Shown here in pieces: positions 6,728-39,962 of a DNA stretch of 64,000 bases. The DNA is taken from sequence record PQ850605.1; one strand, given 5' to 3'. The notes beneath the pieces are model-generated. The model was not told the origin of the DNA and did no database searches. It saw nothing but the letters and a program-made list of their open reading frames with translations. The position numbers were made by a program, and so were the translations under genes. Numbering within the stretch: position 1 is the stretch's first letter; every line of letters begins with the position of its first letter. Origin of the DNA: Escherichia phage HansTraber_Bas100.

Positions 6728-7110
6728 GGATTCCTGGCGTAAACTTATATCGAGTTGCGACAAAGGTCATCGGTCGCCAACCGATTCAATATTACATGTA
6801 CAAGGGGCGCACTCTTGATAAAATGCGCAACTACGTTACCACTTATGAAGAACCAATCACGCTACTTGCTTCGGTGCAGGCTGTTCTTCGAAATCAATAC
6901 GTCGAGCTTGGATTGGAGCTTCAAAAGAACTATGTCAAAATCTGGGTAGACAAAGACATTGTTGACCTTGACCGCGACGCTTCCGGCGACTATTTTGTGT
7001 TTGGTGGGAAAACGTATAAAATGGAAGATGAAACGACATGGTTTGACCAAGATGGTTGGACGACTTGCCTTGCCGTGGAAATAAAACAAAGCTTTCCAGT
7101 GTCTACTTGA
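6724..7110 (+). CDS. hypothetical morphogenesis protein
   Basis: ORF track; GTG start overlapping the upstream stop (GTGA). Confidence 0.4.
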   Translation: MRIPGVNLYRVATKVIGRQPIQYYMYKGRTLDKMRNYVTTYEEPITLLASVQAVLRNQYVELGLELQKNYVKIWVDKDIVDLDRDASGDYFVFGGKTYKMEDETTWFDQDGWTTCLAVEIKQSFPVST

Positions 7111-7111
7111 G

Positions 7112-7693
7112 GTGTATATGACAGATGTCGACCTGATTGACATGCTGGCAACGCGAATTGAAGAAGGTCTGGCGACGTATAGTCGTGCAGACCTTTCTGC
7201 TGTTCCGGTCCAGAAAAAGTATCAACCGACTCAACAGGGTATTCCGACTGGTGACCAAATTTGGTTTAACCTTTTATTCTCAGTTCCGTTTGGATGGTCC
7301 ATGAGGAAAAGTGAATTTGTCAATGATGAGTCTCAATTTGTAAACGGAAAATTCAAAGATATTGAAGATCAAATATACGCTACACGTTTTCAAATCAGCG
7401 GCTTATTTCCAGAAGTTCCTGGCAATCCAGAAAAGCCTACTGCTAATGACGTATTGACTTATTTGGCAAGATTCATAACTCATAAAGCGAATTTGAGGGA
7501 TTGGTTCAACAAGCATCAGGCATCAGTATATCGAATCGACATGAATAATAATGAAAAGTTTTATGATGACATGTCGCAATTTGAATCATTCCCTTCTTTT
7601 GATTTGGTAATACTTCACAGAAACGCAATTTCAATTGATACTCCTGCTGTTGCAAGAGCTGTTAATAATGATTTGGGTGATATTCCGGTGTAA
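7112..7693 (+). CDS. hypothetical morphogenesis protein
   Basis: ORF track; start codon uncertain (GTG 7112 or ATG 7118). Confidence 0.4.
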   Translation: MYMTDVDLIDMLATRIEEGLATYSRADLSAVPVQKKYQPTQQGIPTGDQIWFNLLFSVPFGWSMRKSEFVNDESQFVNGKFKDIEDQIYATRFQISGLFPEVPGNPEKPTANDVLTYLARFITHKANLRDWFNKHQASVYRIDMNNNEKFYDDMSQFESFPSFDLVILHRNAISIDTPAVARAVNNDLGDIPV

Positions 7694-7694
7694 T

Positions 7695-8180
7695 ATGACA
7701 AAATCAAAAATGATAGAAAAACAGATTAAGGCGCTTCAGTCTATGAAGGGTCTTACTGTTGAGGCAGGATGGTTTGATTCTACCAGATACCCTTCAGAAA
7801 CTGGTGGAGAAGGAATACTGGTGTCAGAAGTAGCGCGGCTTAACGAGTTTGGTCACATAGCCGTTTTGAACTTTGGACAAGGCCCAGTCAGGGTAGAAGT
7901 GCCACCCAGACCATTCATGAGATATGCCTATGAATTATTCGTTAGTGAGCGCAGTGAAATAGAGAATAAAATTGCTAAAAAGATTTTTTCCGGTAAAATA
8001 GACGCTAGACAGGCATTGGGTCAAATTGGGCTTGCGATGGAAGCAAAGATTGTCGAATCAATTAAAAACGGACCGTGGCAACCAAATGCCAGATATACTG
8101 TACGTGTGAAGGGATTCGACAAGCCTTTGATTCACACTAGCCTCATGTGGCAATCTGTCAGCAGCCAAGTCATTAAATAA
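7695..8180 (+). CDS. virion morphogenesis / tail completion protein (Mu gpG / HK97 gp10-like)
   Basis: Internal ATG at 7695 right after the upstream stop; ~160 aa; positioned immediately before the sheath gene as in Mu-like phages. Confidence 0.4.
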   Translation: MTKSKMIEKQIKALQSMKGLTVEAGWFDSTRYPSETGGEGILVSEVARLNEFGHIAVLNFGQGPVRVEVPPRPFMRYAYELFVSERSEIENKIAKKIFSGKIDARQALGQIGLAMEAKIVESIKNGPWQPNARYTVRVKGFDKPLIHTSLMWQSVSSQVIK

Positions 8181-12788: not shown

Positions 12789-13205
12789 ATGAAGATCACC
12801 AACAAACAAACTGGTCGTACAGTAGAAATTAAAATCAGCAAAATGACTGCGATGGAAGGCTGGAATATTCAGCGTCGCTTTGTCGAATTTGCAATGTCGA
12901 AAGACCCTGCGTTCCGTTCAGAGTATACGATGGAAGTGTTGAGCTTCGCAAAAGTCGAGCTTGATGTGGGCCAAGAAATCCCATTAAGTACTGGTGCACT
13001 AATTGACAACCATCTTGGTGACTGGGAAAACCTTAAAGAAGTCTTCGAAGCAGTCCTCATGGAGAACGGTATAAACCCAGATACTCACGCCGAGCGTGAA
13101 GGCTACTGGGAACAAGCTGGCGGCGAAATGGCTGCAGCATTCATCGGCGAATCGATGCGATTAATCGCTCCATTCCTCAGCGGCGAGACTCCAAACAAGG
13201 GGTAA
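12789..13205 (+). CDS. putative tail assembly chaperone
   Basis: 138-aa acidic protein immediately upstream of the tape measure gene. Confidence 0.35.
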   Translation: MKITNKQTGRTVEIKISKMTAMEGWNIQRRFVEFAMSKDPAFRSEYTMEVLSFAKVELDVGQEIPLSTGALIDNHLGDWENLKEVFEAVLMENGINPDTHAEREGYWEQAGGEMAAAFIGESMRLIAPFLSGETPNKG

Positions 13206-13208
13206 ACT

Positions 13209-15389
13209 GTGTCTGACTCATTAGAAAAATTTGTGCTTCAATATACGGTGGACTTGAAAGAGTCCATCAATCGTCTTGAGCAATTGCAAGATAAGGTTGA
13301 TCAGACAAACAAAAAGGCAAAATCCGCTGGCAAAGATTTCTCTGGAGCATTCAAAGATGTTTTTGGCGAGCTAAAGCCGCTTACTGGTGAGCTAGGGTCA
13401 ATTGACGGAATACTTGCGCGGCTGACATATCGTTTTGCCGCGCTCGTCCCTGTTGTCGCAGGATTGGCAGTCGTCGTCAAATCCATCGTTGATGTTCGAA
13501 AAGAATACGAAGCGCAAAGAAAGCTTGGTTTTGAAGCCGGACTCTCTCCAATGGGTGTCGAACAACTACAACGACAGTTGAATGAAAGTTCAGGTGGCAT
13601 CCTTGGCGCACAGGGGTCGCGCGATTTAATCAGCAAAGCTTCTAATTTGGCATTCAATGCATACACCAACCCTGATGTGATGAACAAGGACAACTTGTTG
13701 CTGAACAAGATGGGGACAAGTCCTTTCAACAGTAACGGCGGCATCAAAGACACGAATCAGCTGCTTGATGAAATTGGAACAAAGCTGAGAAGTGTTAATG
13801 AGCAAACCGCTCGTGCCATTGGTGCTCTGGCAGGATTCACGGCTGATGAAGTCCGCGCCCTTCGTGAGCGCAACCAGTCTGTGAAAGAAAGCACGCGCAT
13901 AAGTGACGAAGAAACCGCGAAGCTGCAAAGACAGCAAGCTGCTCTTGAGACTATACGAAATAGTATGGGGCAAATTCAAGAAGATTGGCGGCGTATTGAA
14001 CTGGTCATCGGTGAAAACGTTATGCCTGCATTCTCGACGCTTGTCAGCAAAACCGCCGATACAGTCGAAGGATTCCAGATGATGTTCCAAAGAATGTCCG
14101 ATGGGTGGTCTGAATTCGTCGACAATTTCATTGCTGACTTGAAACATCCGTTCGACAAGCAGGCCGCTGTCAACGAGCGTCACGAGCGTGCCGTTGATAG
14201 ATGGATCACGCAGATGGCAGACGGCGATGTGAAACGCCAGAGGAACCAGGAGCAAAACGCTGCTGAACAACGCTCTGCACAAGCACTTTTCACTCGTGAT
14301 ATAAATCTTTTTTCAAGCGCCGTGTCAACTTTTGCTGGCGTGATTGATGAGCGTCAAGCTTGGGCGGCATGGGCAGGTGAAATTGGGCGCAGCGCAGGGC
14401 AATCCGCGATGCCTGGAACGCCTGCATTGAATACTGGCGCGACCATAGGGAGTAATCTTGGGTCAGGAAACCCGACAGCGTATGACTCAATATATGAGGA
14501 AGCTTCAAAACGCTATGGCATACCTGTGGCGATGATGAAGGCCGTGACTGAAGTTGAATCTGGATTCAATCCAAATGCTGTGAGCGGAGCAGGCGCGACT
14601 GGTTTGATGCAAATAATGCCTTCTAACTTCAAGGGTCTTGGAATAACCGATGGCAATGATCCTCGACAAAACATTATGGGCGGCGCTCAACTGTTGAAAG
14701 AGTATTTAAACGCTGCCAACGGCGATTGGAATCTTGCGCTGACGATGTATCACGGTGGCTACGACCGCAGCGGCTGGGGCAAGAATACACGCGCTTATCC
14801 TGGAAAGGTCATGGCCGCTCTCGACCGACAATCCAATGGTGAGTATGCCACGGCAGCGCCGCAAGGTGCACCAGTTACTCCAGTACTTAGCGGTAGCGGA
14901 GCGGAAGCACCAAAGGGCAGCTATGCACCAGTACAAGGCCAATCGCGCCAAACAGTGCAATACAGGCAATTGCAAGAAGCCATTGCAGGATACCTGAACG
15001 TACCAGTTGAGCAGTTGATGCAGGGACAAGTCAACAAAGGTGATATTGACTTTGCTCAAACTTACCTTAAGCTTGGCACGCAAAGGGATTATATTAAAAA
15101 CATGCAACTGGCTTCAACTCCAGGTGTAAGACCGAACATTCAAGCCGAAGCTATGAAAAACGCTCGTCTTGCTGCATTCCAACTTGAAGCATTCCAGAAA
15201 TACGGTGGCGACCTTTCCGCGAATAGTCGACCTGGTGGGCGTGATATTACTATGGGTCAGAAAAACGTTGTCATCAACGTCAACGGCGCTCAAGACCCAC
15301 GCAGCACGGCATTCGAAACGAAACGAGTGCTTGAACAAGATGATATCAACGACATAAACAACCTTACTGCTACACCTTTGAAGTGGTGA
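13209..15389 (+). CDS. tail tape measure protein with lytic transglycosylase (SLT) domain
   Basis: 726 aa; helical N-terminal half with a hydrophobic segment; SLT catalytic signature KAVTEVESGFNPNAVSGAGATGLMQIMPSNF. Confidence 0.7.
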   Translation: MSDSLEKFVLQYTVDLKESINRLEQLQDKVDQTNKKAKSAGKDFSGAFKDVFGELKPLTGELGSIDGILARLTYRFAALVPVVAGLAVVVKSIVDVRKEYEAQRKLGFEAGLSPMGVEQLQRQLNESSGGILGAQGSRDLISKASNLAFNAYTNPDVMNKDNLLLNKMGTSPFNSNGGIKDTNQLLDEIGTKLRSVNEQTARAIGALAGFTADEVRALRERNQSVKESTRISDEETAKLQRQQAALETIRNSMGQIQEDWRRIELVIGENVMPAFSTLVSKTADTVEGFQMMFQRMSDGWSEFVDNFIADLKHPFDKQAAVNERHERAVDRWITQMADGDVKRQRNQEQNAAEQRSAQALFTRDINLFSSAVSTFAGVIDERQAWAAWAGEIGRSAGQSAMPGTPALNTGATIGSNLGSGNPTAYDSIYEEASKRYGIPVAMMKAVTEVESGFNPNAVSGAGATGLMQIMPSNFKGLGITDGNDPRQNIMGGAQLLKEYLNAANGDWNLALTMYHGGYDRSGWGKNTRAYPGKVMAALDRQSNGEYATAAPQGAPVTPVLSGSGAEAPKGSYAPVQGQSRQTVQYRQLQEAIAGYLNVPVEQLMQGQVNKGDIDFAQTYLKLGTQRDYIKNMQLASTPGVRPNIQAEAMKNARLAAFQLEAFQKYGGDLSANSRPGGRDITMGQKNVVINVNGAQDPRSTAFETKRVLEQDDINDINNLTATPLKW

Positions 15390-25011: not shown

Positions 25012-25989
25012 TTAAAAATACTCCATATCGGTAATATCACGGAAGCATTTATACAAAGCAGAGCGCGGCACGTCGACGATGCCAAAGTTAAAGAATTTAT
25101 ACGTTAGGTATTTATCGCGATAGTTCTCGCGATTCTCCCAAAGCATTTTACGCTCTGCCATAGGCATTGAACCAGCGGAGACGCGGAAAGGAATCATTTC
25201 ACCTTTCTCATCCACATATTTTGGATTGACGACTACGAATGAGCCAAGGTATCCTTTCGCAACTAAACCTTCAGCCTCTTTTGAACGCTTGGTGCGACCC
25301 AATTCGTCAATGAATGCTTCGTTGTTGTTCTCCATCATCTCAACGAAGTCTATGATCAACCCTTCTTCATCGGTCCACGGCTTGTCCTTCCACACATCAC
25401 GTGACTTCGGCGTCGCGCGGCCATGCTTATATTTGCCCGTCCAAGACTTGCCATACAAGCCTTCATAGCCAAGCTGGTCTGCTTCGATTTGCATTGCCGC
25501 GTACTGGTCCATATTTTCGATGTTGCGATATTCGAGAGCGCGAAGGAATGGACGTCGGCCATGGTCAATGAGATGTTGATTGACCTCAGCAACACGTCGA
25601 TTGTACTTCTCATAACGGGCCGAGAATGGCAAATCAGGTTCGCTAAAGTCATCAAACACCCACCATGTAAAGTTAGTGATTGCATCAGTGTTCATGCATG
25701 CAGTATAGGCCTGTTGCATGACGTTCTTGTCATTTGGATTGCCGTCGATTAGCTCTCCATCAAGTCCGTGAATTAATTCACCCAAGAAGAGGAACTCTTT
25801 TTTGATTTGAATGTTGCGCAGCGCCATGCCGGACGTGCCCATTGGCAAGTTGTCATACGCCATTGCGCGTATGCCATCGACCTTGAATGACAATCCGCAA
25901 GGCAGCGGCACGTCTTCGCCGCGCTCGATTATTTGCTTACGCTGGCAACCCTTCATTGGTTTTAATGCTTTGATTTCTCCTGCCATCAC
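25012..25989 (-). CDS. ATP-dependent DNA ligase
   Basis: Adenylation motif FKVDGIRA (K-x-DG) near the N-terminus, followed by DGELIDG, EGLYGK and KDK motifs. Confidence 0.6.
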   Translation of the reverse strand: MMAGEIKALKPMKGCQRKQIIERGEDVPLPCGLSFKVDGIRAMAYDNLPMGTSGMALRNIQIKKEFLFLGELIHGLDGELIDGNPNDKNVMQQAYTACMNTDAITNFTWWVFDDFSEPDLPFSARYEKYNRRVAEVNQHLIDHGRRPFLRALEYRNIENMDQYAAMQIEADQLGYEGLYGKSWTGKYKHGRATPKSRDVWKDKPWTDEEGLIIDFVEMMENNNEAFIDELGRTKRSKEAEGLVAKGYLGSFVVVNPKYVDEKGEMIPFRVSAGSMPMAERKMLWENRENYRDKYLTYKFFNFGIVDVPRSALYKCFRDITDMEYF

Positions 25990-26579
25990 TCAAACTCCTT
26001 ATTCATCACTTGTTCCAGCGCATAGGCGTAATCCTGATCAGTCGATTTGATAAACGTGCCGTTGTACATGACGCCTTTGCGGTCTTTGATGTCTTCGTAG
26101 GCAGCTTGCGCACAGTCGGATAAGCGAAGGCCATAATCATGAGCTACGCCGGAAAGGTAATCGACTGCGGCCATGATGTTGACGTCAATATCCATGGTTT
26201 GATTCTTGGCAATAGCATCACCAAGTCGTCCAAGGGTCTTTGCCAGGCGAAGGATAAATGAATGAGGGTGAGCGCCTTTATCAGCGCAACCGCCGCCATT
26301 AATGTTTTCGATTTCAGCACCGTTTTGCGCTGCCAGGATGGTCAACACAACAAGGCAATCGCCAATGTCGTCCTTAATTGCAGCTTGCAAGTCACAGATG
26401 GCCTGCTCTGTATATCCAATTTCAGGGTCGAAGAACACAAGGTCATGGAGTTGATCAACGTGGTCGGTTAACTCCCCAAACTCGCTGATAAGCTTCGGGT
26501 ATTGGTCCTTAAGGTCGCAACCTTGGATGATGTTACGGTCAGAAGCCCACTGGCGAATGTTTGCATAAATCTGTTTCAT
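25986..26579 (-). CDS. mazG: MazG-like nucleoside triphosphate pyrophosphohydrolase
   Basis: LISEFGELTDHVD and IKDDIGDCLVVLTILA match the MazG E-x-x-E-L-x-D / D-x-x-G-D helical motifs. Confidence 0.5.
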   Translation of the reverse strand: MKQIYANIRQWASDRNIIQGCDLKDQYPKLISEFGELTDHVDQLHDLVFFDPEIGYTEQAICDLQAAIKDDIGDCLVVLTILAAQNGAEIENINGGGCADKGAHPHSFILRLAKTLGRLGDAIAKNQTMDIDVNIMAAVDYLSGVAHDYGLRLSDCAQAAYEDIKDRKGVMYNGTFIKSTDQDYAYALEQVMNKEFE

Positions 26580-27151: not shown

Positions 27152-28012
27152 TTAAAACTCTTCTGCGTCGGTCGGAGTTTCATTGACAGGACCAGCGGCA
27201 CCGCTTGCTTCTTCCTGCTTGCTGCGGTCAATGTTAACGTTGCCGCCAACTACGTCGTTGTGGAATGCTTTAGCGACTTCGTACAGACCTTTATCCTGCA
27301 CCAGACCTTCCAGCTCAAACTTAAGAACTGACCAGGTGTTGCCGTCTTTGGACTGAGATGCAGTGCCCATGCGAACAATGTTCATAAAGGTCGGCGGCGT
27401 TTTCAGACCCTGCGGAGTCTGAACTTTCTTCTGCTGCAGAGCGGTCATCAGCATGCGAGACGGCTTGATCATGGAAGAAGTCAGAGACAGCATTGCGCTA
27501 CCAAATTCACCAGTTTCTTCGTTCAACAGAATTACGAAGTGGTTGCGTGTATCTGCGTAGTAAGGCGATTTCTTCTCGTGCACCTTGCCGTTTTCGTCCG
27601 GCACGAATACCTTACCGTTGATCTCAACAGCGCGGCCTGCCGCGACTTCTGCATCAACGTGCTCTTTGGTGAATTCACCTTTAAAGCCTTTATCGTCGGA
27701 CTCGCGACCGCCCCAAAGGATGAAGGTGCGTTTGAATGCGCAAGGGATGATCTGCACGCCTTTCTTGCCGTCATACAACTCACCAGTAACGGTGTTGTAA
27801 AGCATGCCAGCTTTTGCACCAGGAACGTGTTTTGGATCATCTTCGTCGACCATAGGAGACATCTTCTGCAGGACGACGATAAAAGGAATGGCATACGCAT
27901 CGGCATCGGCACCTTCAAAACCAGCGCCAAAATCGGTCATGTCGACAAAATCAGCCATAGCGGACATCTGGGTGTTTTTCACTGCAACTTCGGTAGTTTC
28001 TTTCTTAGACAT
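27152..28012 (-). CDS. single-stranded DNA-binding protein (T7 gp2.5-like, tentative)
   Basis: 286 aa ending in an acidic tail with terminal Phe (ETPTDAEEF), as in gp2.5-type SSBs; replication module. Confidence 0.4.
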   Translation of the reverse strand: MSKKETTEVAVKNTQMSAMADFVDMTDFGAGFEGADADAYAIPFIVVLQKMSPMVDEDDPKHVPGAKAGMLYNTVTGELYDGKKGVQIIPCAFKRTFILWGGRESDDKGFKGEFTKEHVDAEVAAGRAVEINGKVFVPDENGKVHEKKSPYYADTRNHFVILLNEETGEFGSAMLSLTSSMIKPSRMLMTALQQKKVQTPQGLKTPPTFMNIVRMGTASQSKDGNTWSVLKFELEGLVQDKGLYEVAKAFHNDVVGGNVNIDRSKQEEASGAAGPVNETPTDAEEF

Positions 28013-28071
28013 TTGATATTTTCCTATAGTATCAAGTTTCGTGGCAACCTGATTTCAAGATAAAGGTTAAA

Positions 28072-28629
28072 TTACTTTTTGCTTTTAGGCAAGGTTATTT
28101 TAGCTTCTTTGTATTCAAAAACGCTAATATCTTCACTAACTGGATTGCCCGCTTCCAGCTGTTCTTTTACAAACGACTTCAGTGTAGCAGAATGAACGCC
28201 TTGTTTCAACGTGGCTTCAACACCATCTTCACGCAGCGCGGCAACAATCTCTTGCGCCTGTTCGATTTCTTCGCGACCGAACTCAGCCGTGACGCTGGAC
28301 TTGATCAAGCCGCCGTAACCGTTGTTGACAAGCCAATCGAAAACTTTTAATTCGTTTTCTTTCTTGATTGAAGCGTTCACCTTGGACTCGACCTTGATTT
28401 TGGTCTTGTCCTCAAGCTTGATTTCGGACACACCAAGCTCATCCATAACGCCAGGAAGCAGAACAGTTTTGATTTCACTGATGCGCTGCTTTTGCATATC
28501 AGCTTCATCTTCAAGCTCTGTCAAAGCCTCTTGGCGTTCTGCCAGTTCAGATACTAAGCGCGCAAGGCGCTCTTGAATGCTCTCAGGAGCGACCTGCGGC
28601 AAATCATCTTCCCAATTAATATTGCTCAT
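28072..28629 (-). CDS. hypothetical replication/recombination-module protein
   Basis: ORF track; acidic coiled-coil-like N-terminus. Confidence 0.4.
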   Translation of the reverse strand: MSNINWEDDLPQVAPESIQERLARLVSELAERQEALTELEDEADMQKQRISEIKTVLLPGVMDELGVSEIKLEDKTKIKVESKVNASIKKENELKVFDWLVNNGYGGLIKSSVTAEFGREEIEQAQEIVAALREDGVEATLKQGVHSATLKSFVKEQLEAGNPVSEDISVFEYKEAKITLPKSKK

Positions 28630-34345: not shown

Positions 34346-34370
34346 AAAAAGGCCGCCCATTAGGACGGCC
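34346..34370 (-). terminator. intra-operon terminator/attenuator hairpin
   Basis: On the - strand GGCCGTCCTAATGGGCGGCC followed by TTTTT, between the VOC-like and exonuclease genes. Confidence 0.45.
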
Positions 34371-34386
34371 ACAGATTCACGATTCG

Positions 34387-34938
34387 TTATACGGTGTACG
34401 GAGTACCGTCTTGATTCAAGCGCACGATGAATTTCAAATCGACGCCGATGATTTCACGCGTATCAAAGATCACATAGTTGTAACGACGTTGGCCAGCAAT
34501 GTTTGGGTTGGTGTGAGAGTCAGTCACGACTTCCTGTGCAACCTGAATGCCTTCTTCGCTAAAGAACTTACGCCATTCGGCAAGTTCAACGGCAGTAACG
34601 TGCATGCCAAGATGGCTCACTTGATTGTCGTGCGCATCGAGCATTTCGATGTTTTCTTCAATCCAGTTACACCCTTTTGTATAGTCGAGAATTTCAAGCT
34701 CAAGAGGCTTACCAGCGCCGCCATCCGTGCCATTGCCAGACTGATAGTTGAAGCGCAAGTCAGCTTCATTGGTGCAATCGTCGCGACGACCTTTAAAGTC
34801 ATCAGCTTCAAATACGCGACCAGTAGCAACAACATGATCATGGAACCATTCTGTCAGGCCGATTTTAGCCAAGAAATCCTGTGCGCGCTGAGCATCTGGA
34901 ATTGACAGGGCGATTTGTTCAATTTTAAAATGTGGCAT
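34387..34938 (-). CDS. hypothetical protein (possible VOC/glyoxalase-like fold)
   Basis: 183 aa; fold assignment is weak, based only on general composition. Confidence 0.3.
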   Translation of the reverse strand: MPHFKIEQIALSIPDAQRAQDFLAKIGLTEWFHDHVVATGRVFEADDFKGRRDDCTNEADLRFNYQSGNGTDGGAGKPLELEILDYTKGCNWIEENIEMLDAHDNQVSHLGMHVTAVELAEWRKFFSEEGIQVAQEVVTDSHTNPNIAGQRRYNYVIFDTREIIGVDLKFIVRLNQDGTPYTV

Positions 34939-35035
34939 TTTTGTTTCCTTAATTAAATATTATTGATTAATTACTGTGTTGTCTTCGTCCTGTTTCTTTT
35001 CAGGAGCGGGTGTGACAACTTCAAATGTTCGTGAT

Positions 35036-35719
35036 TTATTTACCAAATGGAATATCAGTACCAGACATAAAGCGCCATGCGCCAGTAATTAAGATATGGC
35101 GAATGAAGTCGGCAATTACTTGCGGCTCAGTCTCCAATCCATTCATCAATGCCTTTTTCTGGTATTCAGCGGCGTATTCAGGAGTCCAGCCGCGAGTCGC
35201 ACAAACGGCATCTTCAATCTGTTTAGACATGCCGGTGCCGCGCAACTTGTTAGGACTAATAGAGAATACCGTGATGCCGTACTTAGGCGTAAGTTCGTGA
35301 GCCATCTGCTTGCTGATCATAAGCGCAGCAGCCTTGGATGCATTATAACACAAGCTGGACGTCATAGGAATATGCGCAGCGTTGGAAACGATGTTGATCA
35401 CAAAGCCTTTGTTGTCGATAAGACTTTTCAGCGCAGCCTGAGTCGTGTTAACGAAAGAGAATGCGTTGGTGTGCATAACGCGGTTAAACTCTTCATAGTT
35501 TACATCTTCAAACCAATTGTTAGAGTTGACACCAGCACAGTTGATCAAGCCTTCAACATCATATGGGCTTAAAATTTCTTTCATCTGTTTAGCATCGCGG
35601 ACGTCATATCCGTATGCTGAATCGATGCCAAGCACGTTATGACCGTAAGCGCCAAGGGTGTCAAAAATAGATTTACCAAGACCGGAATTGGAACCTGTTA
35701 CAACAATTACTTTTTTCAT
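35036..35719 (-). CDS. short-chain dehydrogenase/reductase (SDR)
   Basis: N-terminal VTGSNSGLGKS (TGxxxGxG) and catalytic YNASK (Y-x-x-x-K). Confidence 0.65.
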   Translation of the reverse strand: MKKVIVVTGSNSGLGKSIFDTLGAYGHNVLGIDSAYGYDVRDAKQMKEILSPYDVEGLINCAGVNSNNWFEDVNYEEFNRVMHTNAFSFVNTTQAALKSLIDNKGFVINIVSNAAHIPMTSSLCYNASKAAALMISKQMAHELTPKYGITVFSISPNKLRGTGMSKQIEDAVCATRGWTPEYAAEYQKKALMNGLETEPQVIADFIRHILITGAWRFMSGTDIPFGK

Positions 35720-35785
35720 TTATTTATCCTTTTTTGGACTTCGTTTCGATGAGGTAAATATAACTCATCGAAACGCACAAGTAAA

Positions 35786-36661
35786 CTATTTATTGAAATT
35801 AATATTATGGGTGTTGACAAGACGTTCACACATGGCGCTATAAACACCATCGTCGTGTATCGAGTCTTCATGCTTCAGGCCGCTGATTGCGAAGCGTGTA
35901 AGCTTGACAATCTTAAGCTCGAACAGGTGCCACATGTGGTAGTCTTCCGGTGTCTTCAACGTTACGCCATTAGGGAACAACACCTGCATAACCTGACCTA
36001 CCATCACAGCGTTATCGCCATAAACGGCATTGCGCTCACGGAAGGTCGCGGCCATCGCATCAAGAATATCAGCAGCGGTTGCTGGGGCTTGTTGTTCAAC
36101 TTCAACAAGTTTAGTCTCTTCTTTTCCTGTTGCACTTGGATCAACTGCTAATTGTTGCACCACTTCACCTGCCTTGCAAAGATTAAATGTAAAGGCGATT
36201 TTATTTTGCGCCATGGAATTATAATGCAAAGCTTCTTCTTGCATCCGCGCGAGTACGTCTTGTCTATCTTCAAATACGTTGATTATTCGATAATCGCCGT
36301 GTCGCAATACATACGATAACCATGCAGATTTCATAACAGTTGATGGACGCTTGTCGCCATGTTCTCTCATCTTGATTGTGAATTCATCAAAAGGGAAAAC
36401 GTTGTCCAGACGTTCAAAAGTGACTTGTCTGTATTTTTCTGGTCTTGCAGTCCAATATTCGACCGCCTCACCGCGAAGTGATGCCGTCTCTACTGCTGAC
36501 GCAATGTTAGGATAGAACTGATCATAACCAATGCCGCTGTGGTAATCATCATAGTCGGACAACGGGCCTGCCACCCTGATACGGTCTAAGCGCCAACGGT
36601 CATCAAACAGAGTTCCGTCAAGGTCGAATACGTTTAAGATTTGGTTATTTTTGATACTCAT
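35786..36661 (-). CDS. HAD-superfamily hydrolase with C-terminal extension
   Basis: Motif I FDLDGTL near the N-terminus; ~120-aa C-terminal domain of unknown function; stop overlaps the ThyX-like gene. Confidence 0.55.
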   Translation of the reverse strand: MSIKNNQILNVFDLDGTLFDDRWRLDRIRVAGPLSDYDDYHSGIGYDQFYPNIASAVETASLRGEAVEYWTARPEKYRQVTFERLDNVFPFDEFTIKMREHGDKRPSTVMKSAWLSYVLRHGDYRIINVFEDRQDVLARMQEEALHYNSMAQNKIAFTFNLCKAGEVVQQLAVDPSATGKEETKLVEVEQQAPATAADILDAMAATFRERNAVYGDNAVMVGQVMQVLFPNGVTLKTPEDYHMWHLFELKIVKLTRFAISGLKHEDSIHDDGVYSAMCERLVNTHNINFNK

Positions 36662-37461
36662 CCTTTTGATACTCCATCTTTGGCAACTGGATTATTGGTG
36701 ATTGGCATCGCATCCCAAAACTGGATGCGCAACTCTTCTTGCTGTGCAGTGGTATCCATCCAATCACGATACCATGGGCAATGGGCCTTACCGTGACGAG
36801 GAAATGCGCACTTACCCATACCGATGCACTGCGGCTGTAGTAAAGGATTGGCCCACGGGTGCACCTTAAGGACTTCCGCAACCATTGCACGGAATACTTC
36901 TTGATACTCGCCTTGAGTACGCGTGCACAAGCGGTTAGAGGCCATTTGTTGTAGAGTGCGCAAGTTGAACTTTGCCATGATATGCGTTTGCATATTAGAA
37001 GGCAACACGGCACGTGCATCTTGAATCTCTGCACCAGCCGCGCGAAGTTCTTGGTATAGGGCGTCAATGGTTGCCATTGCATCATCCCACTTCTCTGCAA
37101 GTTCAGCGGCCTTCTTGTCGTGACGAGTCCATCCCCTTGGATCATCCTCTGGGTAAGTGAATTTAGCAGGACGAATCGCATCAAATGCAGAAGATTCCTG
37201 AGCGCGGCTGGTGCGTTCTTGATATGCGCCTGTGCGTGTGCGTACCATCTGATGAGTCATATTCTTTGATACAGCGGTGATGTCAAAGATATAGTCCACA
37301 AAGTCAAAAGGCGACTTGATGGTGTCAAGCATGTAGTGCCAATGCTCTTGCTTCTCTGATTCCGTCATCTCAGAGACAGGCTTACCAGTCATGCGCGTGC
37401 TCTTTGTTTCCAGCAAAAGGTCAAGTGCATCTTGGGTGTATCGAATTAATTCAACTTTCAT
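36658..37461 (-). CDS. thyX: flavin-dependent thymidylate synthase (ThyX)-like protein, variant signature
   Basis: SPFDFVDYIFDITAVSKNMTHQMVRTRTGAYQERTSR and ARAVLPSNMQTHIMAKFNLRTLQQMASNR align with ThyX motifs, but RHR-x7-S appears as RTR-x7-T. Confidence 0.6.
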   Translation of the reverse strand: MKVELIRYTQDALDLLLETKSTRMTGKPVSEMTESEKQEHWHYMLDTIKSPFDFVDYIFDITAVSKNMTHQMVRTRTGAYQERTSRAQESSAFDAIRPAKFTYPEDDPRGWTRHDKKAAELAEKWDDAMATIDALYQELRAAGAEIQDARAVLPSNMQTHIMAKFNLRTLQQMASNRLCTRTQGEYQEVFRAMVAEVLKVHPWANPLLQPQCIGMGKCAFPRHGKAHCPWYRDWMDTTAQQEELRIQFWDAMPITNNPVAKDGVSKG

Positions 37462-37474
37462 TTTAATTATCCTA

Positions 37475-37921
37475 TTAACGGTAATTTACTAGTTGCTGAT
37501 CACCAGAGAAGGTGCAATGATAAACGAATTGTGCGTTATAAAGCAACTGAAAACTTTTCTTTGGTTCATTATTAGAACTCATTGATGTAAAGATTTCTGC
37601 ACCAGAACGGTTTTCACCAATCAGGTTGATAAAGCCGCCAGTTGAACGAGGCTGAACGAAAGTGAAACGTTGCATCCAAGGAGTGCGGTTGGCACCTTTG
37701 CCTGTGAATCCTTGAATCTGAATATTCAGACCTTCTTGCTCGTTCACGCCGATGTAAGCCGTGATAGTTGCGCCAGTGGCTGCTGCGGTTTTACCGTCCA
37801 TCGCTTCGCAATCATACACAGCGATTGAATCGGAAGTACGGACAGCGGCTTCAGTCGCTTCCATATACATGGTGCCGAGAATAGCAGTTGCGGCAAGCGC
37901 GATTCCAGTGATTCGTTTCAT
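37475..37921 (-). CDS. secreted protein with signal peptide
   Basis: N-terminus MKRITGIALAATAILGTMYMEA is signal-peptide-like. Confidence 0.4.
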   Translation of the reverse strand: MKRITGIALAATAILGTMYMEATEAAVRTSDSIAVYDCEAMDGKTAAATGATITAYIGVNEQEGLNIQIQGFTGKGANRTPWMQRFTFVQPRSTGGFINLIGENRSGAEIFTSMSSNNEPKKSFQLLYNAQFVYHCTFSGDQQLVNYR

Positions 37922-37986
37922 TTTCGTTTCCTCTATGAGTTCTGCTTCAATGATTAAAGTATACGCCCATTGAAGCAGAAAGCAAA

Positions 37987-38982
37987 TTATTTATTAGCAA
38001 TATAAGCAAATTTTTGATAGTTATTTGCTTTGATGAGTTTTTCAACTTCAACAAGGTCATGAGCGACATCATCAAGCAAAATGTTGCGCCAGGTAGCAAA
38101 TCGACCGACACTAAACACGTTCAAATCCATAGTCAGCTGCAGGAGTAGGGCGTGTCGCAAGTCCTTCGGAATGTCGACAATCTTGCCATATTTCTGGTCG
38201 ACCTTTTCAACTTCTTCAAGAGTAATGTCACTCCATGAGAGGCCAAAGGCTGTCAACACTTCGTCGACTTCTGCGCGCAGCTTCATGTCGCGGTAACGAG
38301 TGATGCCGCCTGCGGCTTCAACTGCAGCTGCACTTACGCTGACCAAAGGAATGGTTTCGATGATAAGTGTGTCACCAGTGATTGATGCGCGGTAAGTTCT
38401 GACGGAGTAGTCAGGGAAGTAAATTGTCTGATACAACTCACACTTACGTTTAATCTTAAAGCGGTAAACACGAATGTTTGTTTTATCAAATGAAAAATCA
38501 AGCTTTTGATCAATCCCAGCCAGCTTCATCATAACTGGAAGCGGCGACGTGTTGATGATTGGCGTCTCGCTATAGCCGCAAAGCGTGTCAACCGGAGTGT
38601 TAAAGAATATACGGTCCCCCAGTTTATCGACAAGCTGATCATAGAAGTCGTCTGGCGCAATATAACGCGTTGCAGTTTTAAGCTTCATGATTGAGCGGCT
38701 GCCAAACTGATTGGTGACCTTCATGGAATACATATTGGCAAGGTTGATTGGGCAATGGTCGTGATAGTAGTTACCGCGAAAATACACAGCCTTGTCAACT
38801 GTCACTGCCTTAAAAGGGATTCCGGTAATACGGCTTACTTCTTCGCCGCGAAAGCGTAGCAGCGCCTTGTGCTGTGGCGCTCGCTCCCCTGCTTCGTACA
38901 CAATAGAGTTCGGGAAGTGACACGCGGTAATAAGTCCTGCCAAACCGCCGCCGATAATCATTACAGGTTGTTTCATGTTCAT
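37987..38982 (-). CDS. FAD/NAD(P)-binding oxidoreductase
   Basis: N-terminal VMIIGGGLAGL Rossmann G-x-G-x-x-G dinucleotide-binding motif; 331 aa. Confidence 0.55.
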   Translation of the reverse strand: MNMKQPVMIIGGGLAGLITACHFPNSIVYEAGERAPQHKALLRFRGEEVSRITGIPFKAVTVDKAVYFRGNYYHDHCPINLANMYSMKVTNQFGSRSIMKLKTATRYIAPDDFYDQLVDKLGDRIFFNTPVDTLCGYSETPIINTSPLPVMMKLAGIDQKLDFSFDKTNIRVYRFKIKRKCELYQTIYFPDYSVRTYRASITGDTLIIETIPLVSVSAAAVEAAGGITRYRDMKLRAEVDEVLTAFGLSWSDITLEEVEKVDQKYGKIVDIPKDLRHALLLQLTMDLNVFSVGRFATWRNILLDDVAHDLVEVEKLIKANNYQKFAYIANK

Positions 38983-39061: not shown

Positions 39062-39088
39062 AAAAAAGACCCACAACAAGTGTGGGTC
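39062..39088 (-). terminator. rho-independent terminator
   Basis: On the - strand GACCCACACTTGTTGTGGGTC hairpin followed by TTTTTT, downstream of the repeat-protein gene. Confidence 0.55.
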
Positions 39089-39116: not shown

Positions 39117-39962
39117 TTATTCCGCTTGATCACCGTCTTCAGCATCGTCGTTGGATTCAACATCGACAAACTCGATGTGGCCCATCTCTTCCAGCTTGCT
39201 CAGGTAGGAGCGAACGGAAGCGCCAAACAGTTGATCTTTAACTTTCTCGCCCAGCTCATCGATAGACTGTGCCACGCCAACTTCGCCTTCTTTGATCGCA
39301 GCCAGAACGCGTCCACGGGTGGAATGCTCTTGCGGCTGGCTCAGGCCATTACCAGTGTAGATGAAGTGAGTAGCTTTTGCACGACGCTGACCGTTTGCCT
39401 TTTTAGCAGCCTTACGTTCTGCGATGGCTTTGCGACGTTCTTCAGCTTCTTTCTTACGCTGTTCTTTCTGCTGTTCTGCAGCTTCTTTCGCCGCAATCTT
39501 AGCAGCTTCACGCTCTGCCTTGCGTTTCGCTTTAGCTTCTTCTTTGGCCTTCTCTTTTTCGGCCTTCGCTGCAGCACGGGCTTGATCACGCTCTGCTTTC
39601 TTAGCAGCAGCTTGTTCAGCTTTCAGGCGCTTGGCTTCTTCTTTAGCCTTTGCCTTTTCGATTTCTTTCGCTGCTTTAGCGGCTTCACGCTCTGCTTTCT
39701 TAGCAGCGGCCTTTTCTGCACGCTCTTTAGCTTTCTTGGCTGCTTCTTCAGCACGCTTCTGAGCCTTCTCATCAGCAGCCTGCTTGCGTTTCAGCGCAGC
39801 TTCTTCACGCTTGGCTTGTTTTTCCTGCTCACGCTTCTGGCGTTTTTCTTCGGCTTCTTTCTTTTTAGCCAGGCGTTTTTCTTCAGCCACGCGACGACGT
39901 TCTGCTGCAGCTGCTTGTTTTTCTTCTTTAGATAATACTTTGATTGCTTCGGCCATGTTCAC
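39117..39962 (-). CDS. Lys/Ala/Glu-rich repeat protein (TolA-like helical region) with ~80-aa C-terminal globular domain
   Basis: ~200 aa of KAEE/AAKK-type repeats visible at DNA level; distinct C-terminal domain. Confidence 0.5.
   Translation of the reverse strand: MNMAEAIKVLSKEEKQAAAAERRRVAEEKRLAKKKEAEEKRQKREQEKQAKREEAALKRKQAADEKAQKRAEEAAKKAKERAEKAAAKKAEREAAKAAKEIEKAKAKEEAKRLKAEQAAAKKAERDQARAAAKAEKEKAKEEAKAKRKAEREAAKIAAKEAAEQQKEQRKKEAEERRKAIAERKAAKKANGQRRAKATHFIYTGNGLSQPQEHSTRGRVLAAIKEGEVGVAQSIDELGEKVKDQLFGASVRSYLSKLEEMGHIEFVDVESNDDAEDGDQAE

What the first reader, a model, noticed from the sequence alone, without database searches (positions are those of the whole stretch)
34387..38982. 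Cluster of ThyX-like, HAD, SDR and flavoprotein genes in the replication operon
Five enzyme-like genes (possible VOC-fold protein, SDR with TGxxxGxG and YxxxK, HAD hydrolase with DxDGT, ThyX-like protein, Rossmann-fold FAD/NAD(P) oxidoreductase) plus a secreted protein are co-oriented and tightly packed between the helicase and polymerase genes. Together with the MazG-like gene nearby this suggests nucleotide-pool remodelling or a DNA base modification pathway rather than simple dTMP supply.
Basis: inference. Interest (0 to 1): 0.65.

Follow-up and report, generated by a model that had tools for sequence, protein, structure and literature searches.

The report
Candidate thymidine-hypermodification gene block in coliphage
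A six-gene block in this E. coli phage, built around a sugar-mutase-like flavoprotein and an unusual ThyX enzyme that always occur together, is the best candidate for the unknown pathway that puts sugar-derived groups on thymine in related phages' DNA and helps them escape restriction enzymes.

Summary
The window is a Wifcevirus (E. coli myovirus). Six co-oriented minus-strand genes at 34387-38982 form one unit bracketed by two strong terminator hairpins.

In transcription order they are: a UGM/PPOX-like flavoprotein, a signal-peptide protein, a divergent ThyX, a HAD(PNKP-type)-DUF6378 fusion, an SDR and a methylmalonyl-CoA-epimerase-like VOC protein.

Comparative genomics gives the key result. 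The flavoprotein is phage-specific. In 59 of 59 loci with enough downstream sequence it is followed by this ThyX clade (RTR in place of the RHR motif), and usually by HAD and DUF6378. SDR and VOC come and go together. Other phages carry a methyltransferase or a sulfotransferase in that slot. The secreted protein is a lineage-specific insert.

Literature supplies the link to DNA. Pbunavirus relatives, which carry the core trio, have sugar-derived hypermodified thymidine with no known genes. Wifceviruses resist EcoRI despite 36 sites, with no known protection mechanism.

I conclude, by inference only, that the block is a new flavin-based thymidine-hypermodification module (about 0.5). Plain dTMP supply remains a serious rival (about 0.3). 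Nobody has analysed Wifcevirus DNA chemically.

The parts
39068..39088 (-). Intrinsic-terminator-like hairpin (8 bp stem plus T-run) ending the upstream KA-rich gene. It marks the 5' boundary of the block.
   Evidence: The same feature is annotated as a terminator in phage Mansfield.
39021..39048 (-). Weak sigma-70-like promoter match (9 of 12) just upstream of the flavoprotein gene.
   Evidence: This is a consensus match only, and such matches are no more frequent here than in shuffled sequence.
37987..38982 (-). UGM/PPOX-like FAD flavoprotein (331 aa, phrog_4828). Phage-specific core gene of the module.
37475..37921 (-). 148-aa protein with a signal-peptide-like N-terminus. It is a Wifcevirus-specific insert between the flavoprotein and ThyX, and probably not part of the pathway.
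36658..37461 (-). Divergent ThyX (267 aa). It has RTR instead of RHR, conserved dUMP-binding Arg/Gln residues, and four clade-specific Cys. Its stop codon overlaps the next gene's start by 4 nt.
35786..36661 (-). Two-domain protein (291 aa). The N-terminal part, about residues 1-150, is a HAD phosphatase of the PNKP type with DxDGT. The C-terminal part, about residues 190-291 (DNA 35789-36109), is DUF6378.
35036..35719 (-). Classical short-chain dehydrogenase/reductase (227 aa). Asp at the end of strand beta-2 (VLGID) suggests NAD(H) use; that reading is my inference.
34387..34938 (-). VOC-fold protein (183 aa) with two beta-alpha-beta3 modules, methylmalonyl-CoA-epimerase-like. Phage-specific family that always accompanies the SDR.
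34351..34370 (-). Strong intrinsic-terminator-like hairpin (8 bp, 7 GC, T-run) marking the 3' boundary of the block, before the exonuclease/PolIII-alpha genes.
   Evidence: Annotated as a terminator in Mansfield.
25986..26579 (-). It is 8 kb away and not part of the conserved module. Any link is conjectural.
   Evidence: Pfam MazG, E 0.018, below cut-off; GenBank annotations

Best explanation
The block is a self-contained transcription unit that encodes a flavin-based pathway for a sugar-derived hypermodified thymidine in the phage's DNA.

The conserved core has three parts:
- the UGM-like flavoprotein;
- a divergent ThyX;
- a HAD phosphatase with its DUF6378 partner domain.

The SDR and the epimerase-like VOC protein are an optional tailoring pair. 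They would oxidise and epimerise or isomerise the polyol or sugar side chain, so Wifcevirus should carry a different adduct from Pbunavirus.

Favoured mechanism (inferred, not shown). The modification is made at the nucleotide level, as in Bacillus phage SP-15.
1. A reduced-flavin N5 forms an iminium adduct with C1 of a pentose or pentose phosphate. This is the chemistry UGM uses on galactose.
2. C5 of dUMP attacks that adduct. This is how ThyX accepts the flavin-N5-methylene.
3. Flavin elimination and hydride transfer give a 5-(polyhydroxyalkyl)-dUMP.
4. The HAD enzyme removes a side-chain or competing phosphate.
5. Host kinases and the phage PolIII-alpha incorporate the product alongside dTTP.

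Less favoured variant: the flavoprotein works on DNA. It abstracts hydride from the thymine methyl and a sugar hydroxyl traps the resulting methylene intermediate.

In either version the modified DNA would explain the unexplained restriction resistance of Wifceviruses.
For: 1. Discrete unit. Terminator hairpins flank the six genes, and the ThyX and HAD genes overlap by 4 nt.

2. Tight coupling.
- The flavoprotein family is phage-only. It has 1912 homologues and 1145 50%-identity clusters. Among 185,579 species genomes there are only 3 hits, all on MAG contigs and all with ThyX next door.
- In 59 of 59 loci with at least 4.5 kb downstream, ThyX follows (median gap 380 bp). HAD is present in 54 of 59 and DUF6378 in 56 of 59.
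- In GenBank phages the flavoprotein (361 records) and this ThyX clade occur in the same groups: Pseudomonas 292/292, Escherichia 26/26, Serratia 9/9, Xanthomonas 6/6. The next ThyX hits fall to 30% identity or less.
- The trio also sits together in a 40-kb Vibrio podophage and in 206-kb Rhizobium jumbo phages.

3. The ThyX clade is atypical. 0 of 30 members keep the His of the RHR motif. T. maritima positions H53, Y91 and usually E86 are replaced. The score is below the NCBIfam equivalog cut-off.

4. Variable tailoring slot.
- SDR and VOC co-occur: 32 loci have both, 12 have neither, 1 has VOC only.
- Two loci have a SAM methyltransferase there, and the Vibrio phage has a sulfotransferase.
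- This is the pattern of a biosynthetic cluster that decorates hydroxyl groups.

5. Chemistry in relatives.
- Pbunavirus F8 and 14-1 carry the core trio.
- About a quarter of their T is replaced by nucleosides of mass 362 and 390, described as a tetrose-alcohol derivative and a cyclised pentose derivative. No known modification genes are present (PMC12191111).
- 362 = T + 120. This continues the series SP-15 dihydroxypentyl-U (T+88) and the YerA41 linker (T+104). The series reading is my arithmetic; the YerA41 figure is and the SP-15 structure.

6. SP-15 precedent. Its side chain is labelled from ribose and made as a dNTP. The phage carries two ThyX-family genes (PMC5977210).

7. Rhizobium phage RHph_TM30. 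Its ThyX next to the flavoprotein (YP_010670981.1) is the gene listed for a phage with the YerA41/Carin-5/SP-15-type polymerase of T-hypermodified phages (PMC12686479).

8. Phenotype. Bas98-100 plate at EOP of about 0.3-1.7 on EcoRI and EcoRV strains. Bas98 has 36 EcoRI and 6 EcoRV sites and 93 EcoCFT_II sites.

9. No alternative candidates. No other enzyme-like gene turned up among 30 further proteins scanned from the non-structural part of the window: no TET/JBP, ParB, glycosyltransferase or kinase.
Against: - No nucleoside analysis or restriction digest of any Wifcevirus DNA was found.
- The restriction resistance could be protein-based, as in T5-like phages.
- The ThyX keeps Q75, R78, R80, R90, R147 and R174 (T. 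maritima numbering). It passes Pfam Thy1 at 105 bits, so it may simply make dTMP.
- Much of the synteny comes from phages that share one PolIII-alpha replication module, so common descent inflates the counts.
- The Pbunavirus modification was inferred to sit in TG context, which fits a post-replicative, sequence-reading enzyme better. No such enzyme is identified here.
- F8 DNA is cut by EcoRI, whereas Wifceviruses resist EcoRI in vivo. The two groups cannot carry the same pattern.
- F8 and 14-1 differ in adduct, yet their flavoprotein (97%) and ThyX (94%) are nearly identical.
- The fold match to UGM is only slightly better than to protoporphyrinogen oxidases.
- No dNMP kinase for a bulky dUMP derivative is present.
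- DUF6378 has no known function.
Confidence: 0.5

Rival explanations
1. Ordinary nucleotide supply. ThyX is a normal flavin-dependent thymidylate synthase that feeds rapid phage replication. The flavoprotein is its redox helper, for example re-reducing flavin. HAD-DUF6378 trims or sanitises nucleotides. The SDR is a pterin/folate-type reductase. The VOC protein is an unrelated small-molecule enzyme. No DNA base is altered.
For: - Pfam Thy1 at 105 bits, with all dUMP-phosphate and uracil-binding residues conserved.
- The block sits inside the replication gene region.
- GenBank annotators call it thymidylate synthase.
- HAD_PNKP-type phosphatases are common in phage nucleotide metabolism.
- Eukaryotic UGMs, the best fold match, are reduced directly by NAD(P)H; PDB entries 5vwu and 5vwt appear.
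Against: - A helper that is obligatory in 59 of 59 loci is unknown for any characterised ThyX.
- It does not explain why methyltransferases or a sulfotransferase replace SDR+VOC in the same slot.
- It does not explain why the flavoprotein family exists only in phages.
- It does not explain why the clade lost the RHR histidine.
- It leaves both the Pbunavirus hypermodification and the Wifcevirus restriction resistance without any candidate genes.
Confidence: 0.3
2. The genes modify a sugar or cofactor that is not attached to DNA. One example is making a furanose or keto-sugar nucleotide to alter host O-antigen or LPS (superinfection exclusion). Another is making a small-molecule anti-defence product. 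ThyX is merely adjacent.
For: - UGM-like fold, an SDR, an epimerase-like VOC, a phosphatase and a secreted protein together look like sugar-nucleotide metabolism.
- Wifceviruses depend on O-antigen as their receptor.
Against: - There is no glycosyltransferase, nucleotidyltransferase or flippase in the window.
- The secreted protein is confined to Wifcevirus.
- The invariant partner of the flavoprotein is ThyX, a nucleotide enzyme, across hosts with unrelated surface glycans: Pseudomonas, Vibrio, Rhizobium, Xanthomonas.
- The phages are strictly lytic, with very short latent periods.
Confidence: 0.07
3. There is no joint function. The genes are a mosaic of unrelated accessory genes held together only by inheritance of one ancestral replication module.
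For: - Most loci share the PolIII-alpha, exonuclease and SNF2 neighbours.
- Homing endonucleases and small ORFs insert freely between the genes.
Against: - The trio persists when the surrounding genome differs: the Rhizobium jumbo phage, the Vibrio podophage and locus L060.
- The HAD and DUF6378 halves are fused in 46 ORFs and split in about 25 loci, a classic sign of shared function.
- SDR and VOC are gained and lost as a pair.
- Terminators delimit the unit.
Confidence: 0.08

Closest known systems
Pbunavirus (PB1-like; F8, 14-1) thymidine hypermodification reported with the END nucleases (Yee et al., bioRxiv 2025, PMC12191111)
   Same: These are related myoviruses with the same replication module. 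They carry the same core trio: flavoprotein 39-40% identical, ThyX 49%, plus HAD-DUF6378. Their DNA escapes many restriction enzymes, and no known modification genes are present.
   Different: Pbunavirus lacks the SDR and VOC genes. Its DNA is cut by EcoRI and the modification is read as TG-specific. Wifceviruses resist EcoRI in vivo. The responsible genes have not been assigned in that work, and Wifcevirus DNA has never been analysed.
SP-15 / YerA41 / Carin-5 ('RP13-like') 5-(dihydroxypentyl)uracil-type hypermodification
   Same: A polyhydroxy-alkyl chain sits on C5 of uracil and partly replaces T. The SP-15 side chain comes from ribose and is made as a dNTP. SP-15 has ThyX-family (Pfam Thy1) genes. 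Rhizobium phage RHph_TM30, placed in this polymerase group, carries the flavoprotein-ThyX-HAD/DUF6378 trio.
   Different: Those phages are 110-220 kb and use a PolA with a UDG-like N-domain. They also have blocks of sugar-nucleotide and glycosyltransferase genes that build oligosaccharide or phosphoglucuronate decorations. None of these features is in this window. Whether they have the UGM-like flavoprotein was not determined.
Canonical flavin-dependent thymidylate synthase ThyX (e.g. T. maritima TM0449)
   Same: Same fold family (Pfam Thy1). The dUMP-binding residues are conserved. Its chemistry, a flavin N5 carrying a carbon unit to C5 of dUMP, is the template for the proposed mechanism.
   Different: RTR replaces RHR. 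H53, Y91 and mostly E86 are replaced. A 4-Cys C-terminal extension is present in this subclade. The score is below the NCBIfam equivalog cut-off. The flavoprotein is an obligatory neighbour.
UDP-galactopyranose mutase (Glf/UGM)
5-hmdU-based thymidine hypermodification (ViI, M6, SP10, phiW-14: ThyA-type hydroxymethylase, 5-HMUDK kinase, aGPT-Pplase)
   Same: The biological outcome is the same: partial replacement of T by bulky adducts that block restriction. Both have a phage-encoded multi-enzyme cluster containing a thymidylate-synthase homologue.
   Different: None of that pathway's defining enzymes is present here. The TS homologue is ThyX-type, not ThyA-type. The adducts in the relatives are sugar-derived rather than amino-acid or polyamine-derived.

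Membership tests
ThyX (flavin-dependent thymidylate synthase) | Pfam Thy1 (PF02511) domain above the gathering score | tested here: met
   105.2 bits against a cut-off of 24.8, covering profile positions 2-191 of 191
ThyX (flavin-dependent thymidylate synthase) | NCBIfam equivalog TIGR02170 above its curated cut-off | tested here: not met
   81.6 bits against a cut-off of 87.9
ThyX (flavin-dependent thymidylate synthase) | ThyX signature RHRxxSxxxxSxR | tested here: not met
   The window has RTRTGAYQERTSR. His is replaced in 30 of 30 clade members, and the second Ser is mostly Thr.
ThyX (flavin-dependent thymidylate synthase) | dUMP-binding residues (T. maritima Q75, R78, R80, R90, R147, R174) | tested here: met
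   All are conserved in the alignment with T. maritima ThyX. Residue roles are taken from established ThyX structures.
ThyX (flavin-dependent thymidylate synthase) | Catalyses dUMP to dTMP with CH2-THF and NADPH; complements thyA | not testable with these tools
   Needs an enzyme assay or genetic complementation.
UDP-galactopyranose mutase | FAD Rossmann domain with GxGxxG and the UGM three-domain fold | tested here: inconclusive
UDP-galactopyranose mutase | Sequence membership (Pfam GLF / NAD_binding_8) | tested here: not met
   No Pfam or NCBIfam hit at E<0.1.
UDP-galactopyranose mutase | Catalytic His and the Arg pair that bind the UDP diphosphate | not testable with these tools
   No residue-level superposition was available. 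Many invariant Arg/Lys/His exist (H38, R43, R45, R96, R106, R198, R276, R294), but their positions are unassigned.
Classical SDR | TGxxxGxG cofactor motif, catalytic Ser-Tyr-Lys, adh_short domain | tested here: met
   adh_short 109 bits. TGSNSGLG and YNASK are read in the sequence.
HAD phosphatase, PNKP type | DxDGT nucleophile motif and the HAD_PNKP domain above cut-off | tested here: met
   FDLDGT is present. PF25109 scores 30.8 bits against a cut-off of 27.6.
VOC superfamily (methylmalonyl-CoA epimerase / glyoxalase I type) | Paired beta-alpha-beta3 modules | tested here: met
VOC superfamily (methylmalonyl-CoA epimerase / glyoxalase I type) | Four metal ligands, one on each module's first and last strand | tested here: inconclusive
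   Invariant Q8, E82, H109 and D167 lie on the expected strands. Assigning them as ligands is my reading, not a superposition.
5-hmdU thymidine hypermodification pathway (Lee et al. 2018/2022) | ThyA-type dUMP hydroxymethylase, 5-HMUDK kinase and aGPT-Pplase | tested here: not met
   None was found among the 40 window proteins scanned with Pfam, nor in the GenBank annotations of Bas98 and Mansfield.
Base-J-like route (T-dioxygenase 5mYOX/JBP, with or without ParB, then a glycosyltransferase) | TET/JBP dioxygenase domain, ParB-like activator, glycosyltransferase | tested here: not met
   No such domains in the proteins scanned. Small ORFs under 85 aa were not scanned.
SP-15-type (RP13-like) polyhydroxypentyl-uracil phages | ThyX/TS homologue plus a PolA with a UDG-like N-domain plus a sugar-nucleotide/glycosyltransferase block | tested here: not met
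   A ThyX homologue is present, but the polymerase is PolIII-alpha and there is no glycosyltransferase block. The criteria are taken from PMC12686479.
Pbunavirus-type sugar-derived thymidine hypermodification | Non-canonical T-derived nucleoside in virion DNA | not testable with these tools
   Needs LC-MS of Wifcevirus DNA. Only the shared gene trio and the restriction-resistance phenotype are available.

The most novel reading that the evidence does not exclude
The UGM-like flavoprotein and the RTR-type ThyX form a two-flavoenzyme system that C-alkylates C5 of dUMP with C1 of an aldose or aldose phosphate through a flavin-N5 iminium adduct. This would merge UGM and ThyX chemistry. The product would be 5-(polyhydroxyalkyl)-dUMP. 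It would be the long-missing biosynthetic route to the SP-15/YerA41/Pbunavirus family of sugar-chain thymidine analogues. SDR+VOC, methyltransferase or sulfotransferase modules would diversify the side chain between phage lineages.
Probability: 0.2. Interest if true: 0.9.

Novelty: new variant of a known kind. Interest (0 to 1): 0.72.

Why it matters
Pbunaviruses are among the phages most used for Pseudomonas therapy, and Wifceviruses are candidate anti-EHEC agents. How well either plates on clinical strains depends on restriction systems and on modification-dependent nucleases such as the END family.

The genes behind the newly reported Pbunavirus thymidine hypermodification have not been assigned. 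The restriction resistance of Wifceviruses is explicitly unexplained. This analysis names a small, testable gene set for both.

If it is right:
- It reveals a flavin-based route to base hypermodification with none of the known hallmark enzymes, so current gene-based screens would miss it.
- It may explain the 50-year-old problem of how SP-15-type polyhydroxypentyl-uracil is made.
- It marks well over a thousand uncultivated phage lineages as likely carriers of modified DNA.

Tried and rejected
- Sequence searches of the PDB with the flavoprotein, alone and as a profile, gave only noise. The same was true for the VOC profile and the DUF6378 profile.
The UGM link therefore rests on the fold search and on another group's HHpred note.
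- I tested my recollection that DUF6378 is MazG-like. hhalign against the window's MazG-like protein gave 0.8% probability, and the literature has nothing on it. The idea is dropped.
- I looked for a T-dioxygenase, ParB, glycosyltransferase or kinase elsewhere in the window, because a ParB-dependent phage T-dioxygenase prefers NTG. None was found.
- I compared F8 with 14-1 to find the determinant of their different adducts. The only strongly divergent protein is gp070 (57%), a coiled-coil/zinc-finger protein. The divergence in HAD-DUF6378 (80%) lies largely in a low-complexity linker. The result is uninformative.
- A TG-only modification was considered for Wifcevirus and rejected, because GAATTC has no TG yet EcoRI does not restrict these phages.
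- The bacterial genome scan found no cellular homologues that could hint at function.
It was redone with database homologues.
- No restriction or nucleoside data for WFC, WFH or vB_Eco4M-7 exist in the papers read.

Full report
**What the window is**

The 4.6-kb region is 92-97% identical to 28 sequenced Wifcevirus genomes, including vB_Eco4M-7, WFC, ECML-117, FEC19 and BASEL phages Bas98-101. These are about 68-kb E. coli myoviruses distantly related to Pseudomonas PB1-like phages (Pbunavirus).

**The observation**

| Coordinates | Size | Identity | Evidence |
|---|---|---|---|
| 37987-38982 | 331 aa | Flavoprotein with GxGxxG; phrog_4828, function unknown; no Pfam or NCBIfam hit | |
| 37475-37921 | 148 aa | N-terminus looks like a signal peptide; no family hit | |
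| 36658-37461 | 267 aa | ThyX; Pfam Thy1, 105 bits | |
| 35786-36661 | 291 aa | HAD_PNKP phosphatase with DxDGT plus a C-terminal domain | |
| 35036-35719 | 227 aa | Classical SDR with TGxxxGxG and YxxxK | |
| 34387-34938 | 183 aa | Weak Glyoxalase_4 hit only | |

- Two strong terminator-like hairpins bracket the six genes, at 39088-39068 and 34370-34351. The Mansfield annotators marked the same features.
- ThyX and the HAD gene overlap by 4 nt.
- The block is therefore its own transcription unit inside the replication region.

**Individual proteins**

*Flavoprotein.*
- An AlphaFold2 model built on 41 homologues has pLDDT 87.
- Foldseek places it in the amine-oxidase/UGM/monooxygenase flavoprotein superfamily.
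- It is best called UGM/PPOX-like. Membership in the UGM family is not established.

*VOC protein.*
- The model has pLDDT 92.7 and two beta-alpha-beta3 modules.

*HAD protein.*
- Its C-terminal 100 residues are Pfam DUF6378, matched in 14 of 15 homologues.
- In about 25 loci the two halves are separate adjacent ORFs. In 46 ORFs they are fused.

*SDR.*
- It resembles FabG-type enzymes only generically.

**ThyX is atypical**

I aligned 30 clade members with T. maritima ThyX.
- Q75, R78, R80, R90, R147 and R174 are conserved.
- The RHR histidine is absent from all 30 members.
- H53 becomes Ile or Pro, and Y91 becomes Ala or Val.
- E86 is mostly Gln.
- The subclade containing the window and Pbunavirus has four invariant cysteines in a C-terminal extension.
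- The score falls just below the NCBIfam equivalog cut-off.

**Comparative genomics**

*The flavoprotein family is large and viral.*
- It has 1912 homologues and 1145 clusters at 50% identity, all about 300-330 aa.
- Among 185,579 species genomes there are only three hits. All are on MAG contigs and all have ThyX next door.

*Gene content across 86 loci carrying the flavoprotein*, from IMG/VR, GenBank and those MAGs. The counts below are for the 59 loci with at least 4.5 kb of downstream sequence.

| Gene downstream of the flavoprotein | Loci |
|---|---|
| ThyX (median gap 380 bp) | 59 of 59 |
| HAD | 54 of 59 |
| DUF6378 | 56 of 59 |
| SDR | 41 of 59 |
| VOC | 40 of 59 |

- SDR and VOC appear or vanish together: 32 loci have both, 12 have neither and 1 has VOC only.
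- Pbunavirus has the short form, without SDR and VOC.

*The pairing holds in GenBank phages.*
- The flavoprotein (361 records) and this ThyX clade occupy the same groups.
- The next ThyX hits drop to 30% identity or less.

*The trio occurs in unrelated genome backgrounds.*
- It is present in a 40-kb Vibrio podophage and in 206-kb Rhizobium jumbo phages.

*The slot after HAD-DUF6378 varies.*
- SDR+VOC are usual.
- Two loci have a SAM methyltransferase, and the Vibrio phage has a sulfotransferase.
- Some loci add a second, zinc-finger HAD_PNKP phosphatase.

*The secreted protein* occurs only in Wifcevirus.

**What the literature adds**

*BASEL collection paper.*
- Bas98 has 36 EcoRI sites, 6 EcoRV sites and 93 EcoCFT_II sites, and plates at EOP of about 0.6-1.5 on those strains. 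It forms no plaques at all on EcoP1_I.
- The window itself has 19 EcoRI sites, so these sites are not avoided.

*END-nuclease preprint.*
- Pbunavirus F8 and 14-1 replace about a quarter of T with nucleosides of mass 362 and 390. These are read as a tetrose-alcohol derivative and a cyclised pentose derivative of thymidine, in TG context.
- The authors stress that these phages carry no known modification genes.
- I found no paper linking Pbunavirus and ThyX.

*SP-15 and its relatives.*
- SP-15 carries 5-(4,5-dihydroxypentyl)uracil. Its side chain is labelled from ribose and is made as a nucleoside triphosphate.
- SP-15 has two ThyX-family genes.
- YerA41 has a T+104 linker.
- By my arithmetic, 362 is T+120. 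That is one more hydroxyl along the same series (T+88, T+104, T+120). It is also equivalent to dU bearing a 1-deoxypentityl chain.
- Rhizobium phage RHph_TM30 is listed among phages with the polymerase type of T-hypermodified phages. The ThyX cited for it is the one beside the flavoprotein.

**Interpretation**

The block is most likely a thymidine-hypermodification module of new enzymology.
- The core is the flavoprotein, ThyX and HAD-DUF6378.
- The tailoring enzymes are exchangeable between lineages.

The mechanism I favour is inference only. It joins two established chemistries, both cited from general knowledge of those enzymes:
- the flavin-N5 sugar iminium of UGM;
- the flavin-N5 carbon relay to C5 of dUMP in ThyX.

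Together they would give a 5-(polyhydroxyalkyl)-dUMP that is incorporated during replication.

An on-DNA variant fits the reported TG context better. In it, the flavoprotein oxidises the thymine methyl and a sugar hydroxyl adds to the product.

**Weaknesses**

- There is no chemistry on Wifcevirus DNA.
- Restriction resistance could be protein-mediated.
- ThyX may be a plain thymidylate synthase.
- Shared ancestry of the replication module inflates the synteny counts.
- F8 and 14-1 differ in adduct without clear differences in these genes.
- F8 is cut by EcoRI whereas Wifceviruses resist it.
- No kinase or sequence-reading enzyme is identified.
- DUF6378 remains of unknown function.

Ordinary dTMP supply therefore remains a real alternative (about 0.3).

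**Novelty and verdict**

- The genes are already annotated in GenBank under generic or wrong names.
- The hypermodification in relatives is published, but assigning it to this module is not in the searchable literature.
- I rate the block a new variant of a known kind (phage thymidine hypermodification).
- There is about a one-in-five chance that the chemistry is of a categorically new type.
- A single LC-MS run on Bas98-101 DNA and a handful of deletions would settle the question.

Noticed in passing
window 39117-39962 (-): 281-aa protein with a long Lys/Ala/Glu-rich low-complexity N-terminal part and a conserved C-terminal domain (phrog_4765, function unknown). It is conserved in Pbunavirus (F8 gp066, 53% over the C-terminal domain). 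It sits immediately upstream of the block behind its own terminator. It might be a DNA-coating protein.
   Followed up: partly
window 36658-37461 (-), residues C179, C212, C218, C228: Four cysteines are invariant in the ThyX subclade that contains the window and Pbunavirus (15 of 15). They are absent from the other subclade and from T. maritima ThyX. They may form a metal or Fe-S site in a C-terminal extension.
   Followed up: partly
literature on Bas98-100 (BASEL S1 Data); the window has 83 AGACC sites: Wifceviruses form no plaques at all on the EcoP1_I strain (EOP below 1e-13), yet are untouched by EcoRI, EcoRV, EcoCFT_I and EcoCFT_II. A block this complete is stronger than ordinary restriction and is unexplained.
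   Followed up: partly
whole window: HindIII sites (AAGCTT) occur 52 times against about 16 expected. EcoRV sites occur 3 times against about 16 expected. EcoRI (19) is near expectation. TA is depleted (odds 0.70). 26.5% of T residues are followed by G.
   Followed up: no
L091 (Rhizobium phage RHph_TM30, NC_070966) 6953-7912 and 13093-13815: The RefSeq product names 'polysaccharide deacetylase' (gp190) and 'phosphoheptose isomerase' (gp205) look wrong. The first is the UGM-like flavoprotein. The second is a HAD-like/DUF6378 protein.
   Followed up: partly
L003 (Vibrio phage VA-RY-3) 8229-8984; L061 12619-13116; L080 8826-9326: In phages lacking SDR+VOC, the slot after HAD-DUF6378 holds a sulfotransferase-domain protein (Vibrio phage) or a small SAM methyltransferase (two metagenomic phages).
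   Followed up: partly
L017 11517-12170; L020 11023-11817; L025 11217-11798: Some relatives carry a second, strongly scoring HAD_PNKP phosphatase with an N-terminal CXXCXGXG zinc-finger-like motif, between the flavoprotein and ThyX. Homing endonucleases (HNH, GIY-YIG) are also inserted within the module in several loci.
   Followed up: no
window 27152-28629 (-): A gene pair matches Pfam Pam3_Gp34 (4e-86) and DUF7307 (Pam3 gp33-like). These are families named after a cyanophage and have unknown function. The pair lies between the spanin and helicase genes.
   Followed up: no
L090 (Pseudomonas phage F8) 13894-15090 versus L002 (phage 14-1): F8 gp070, a coiled-coil protein with a zinc-finger-like motif, is only 57% identical between F8 and 14-1, while its neighbours are 91-99% identical. 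It is a local hotspot of divergence of unknown meaning.
   Followed up: partly
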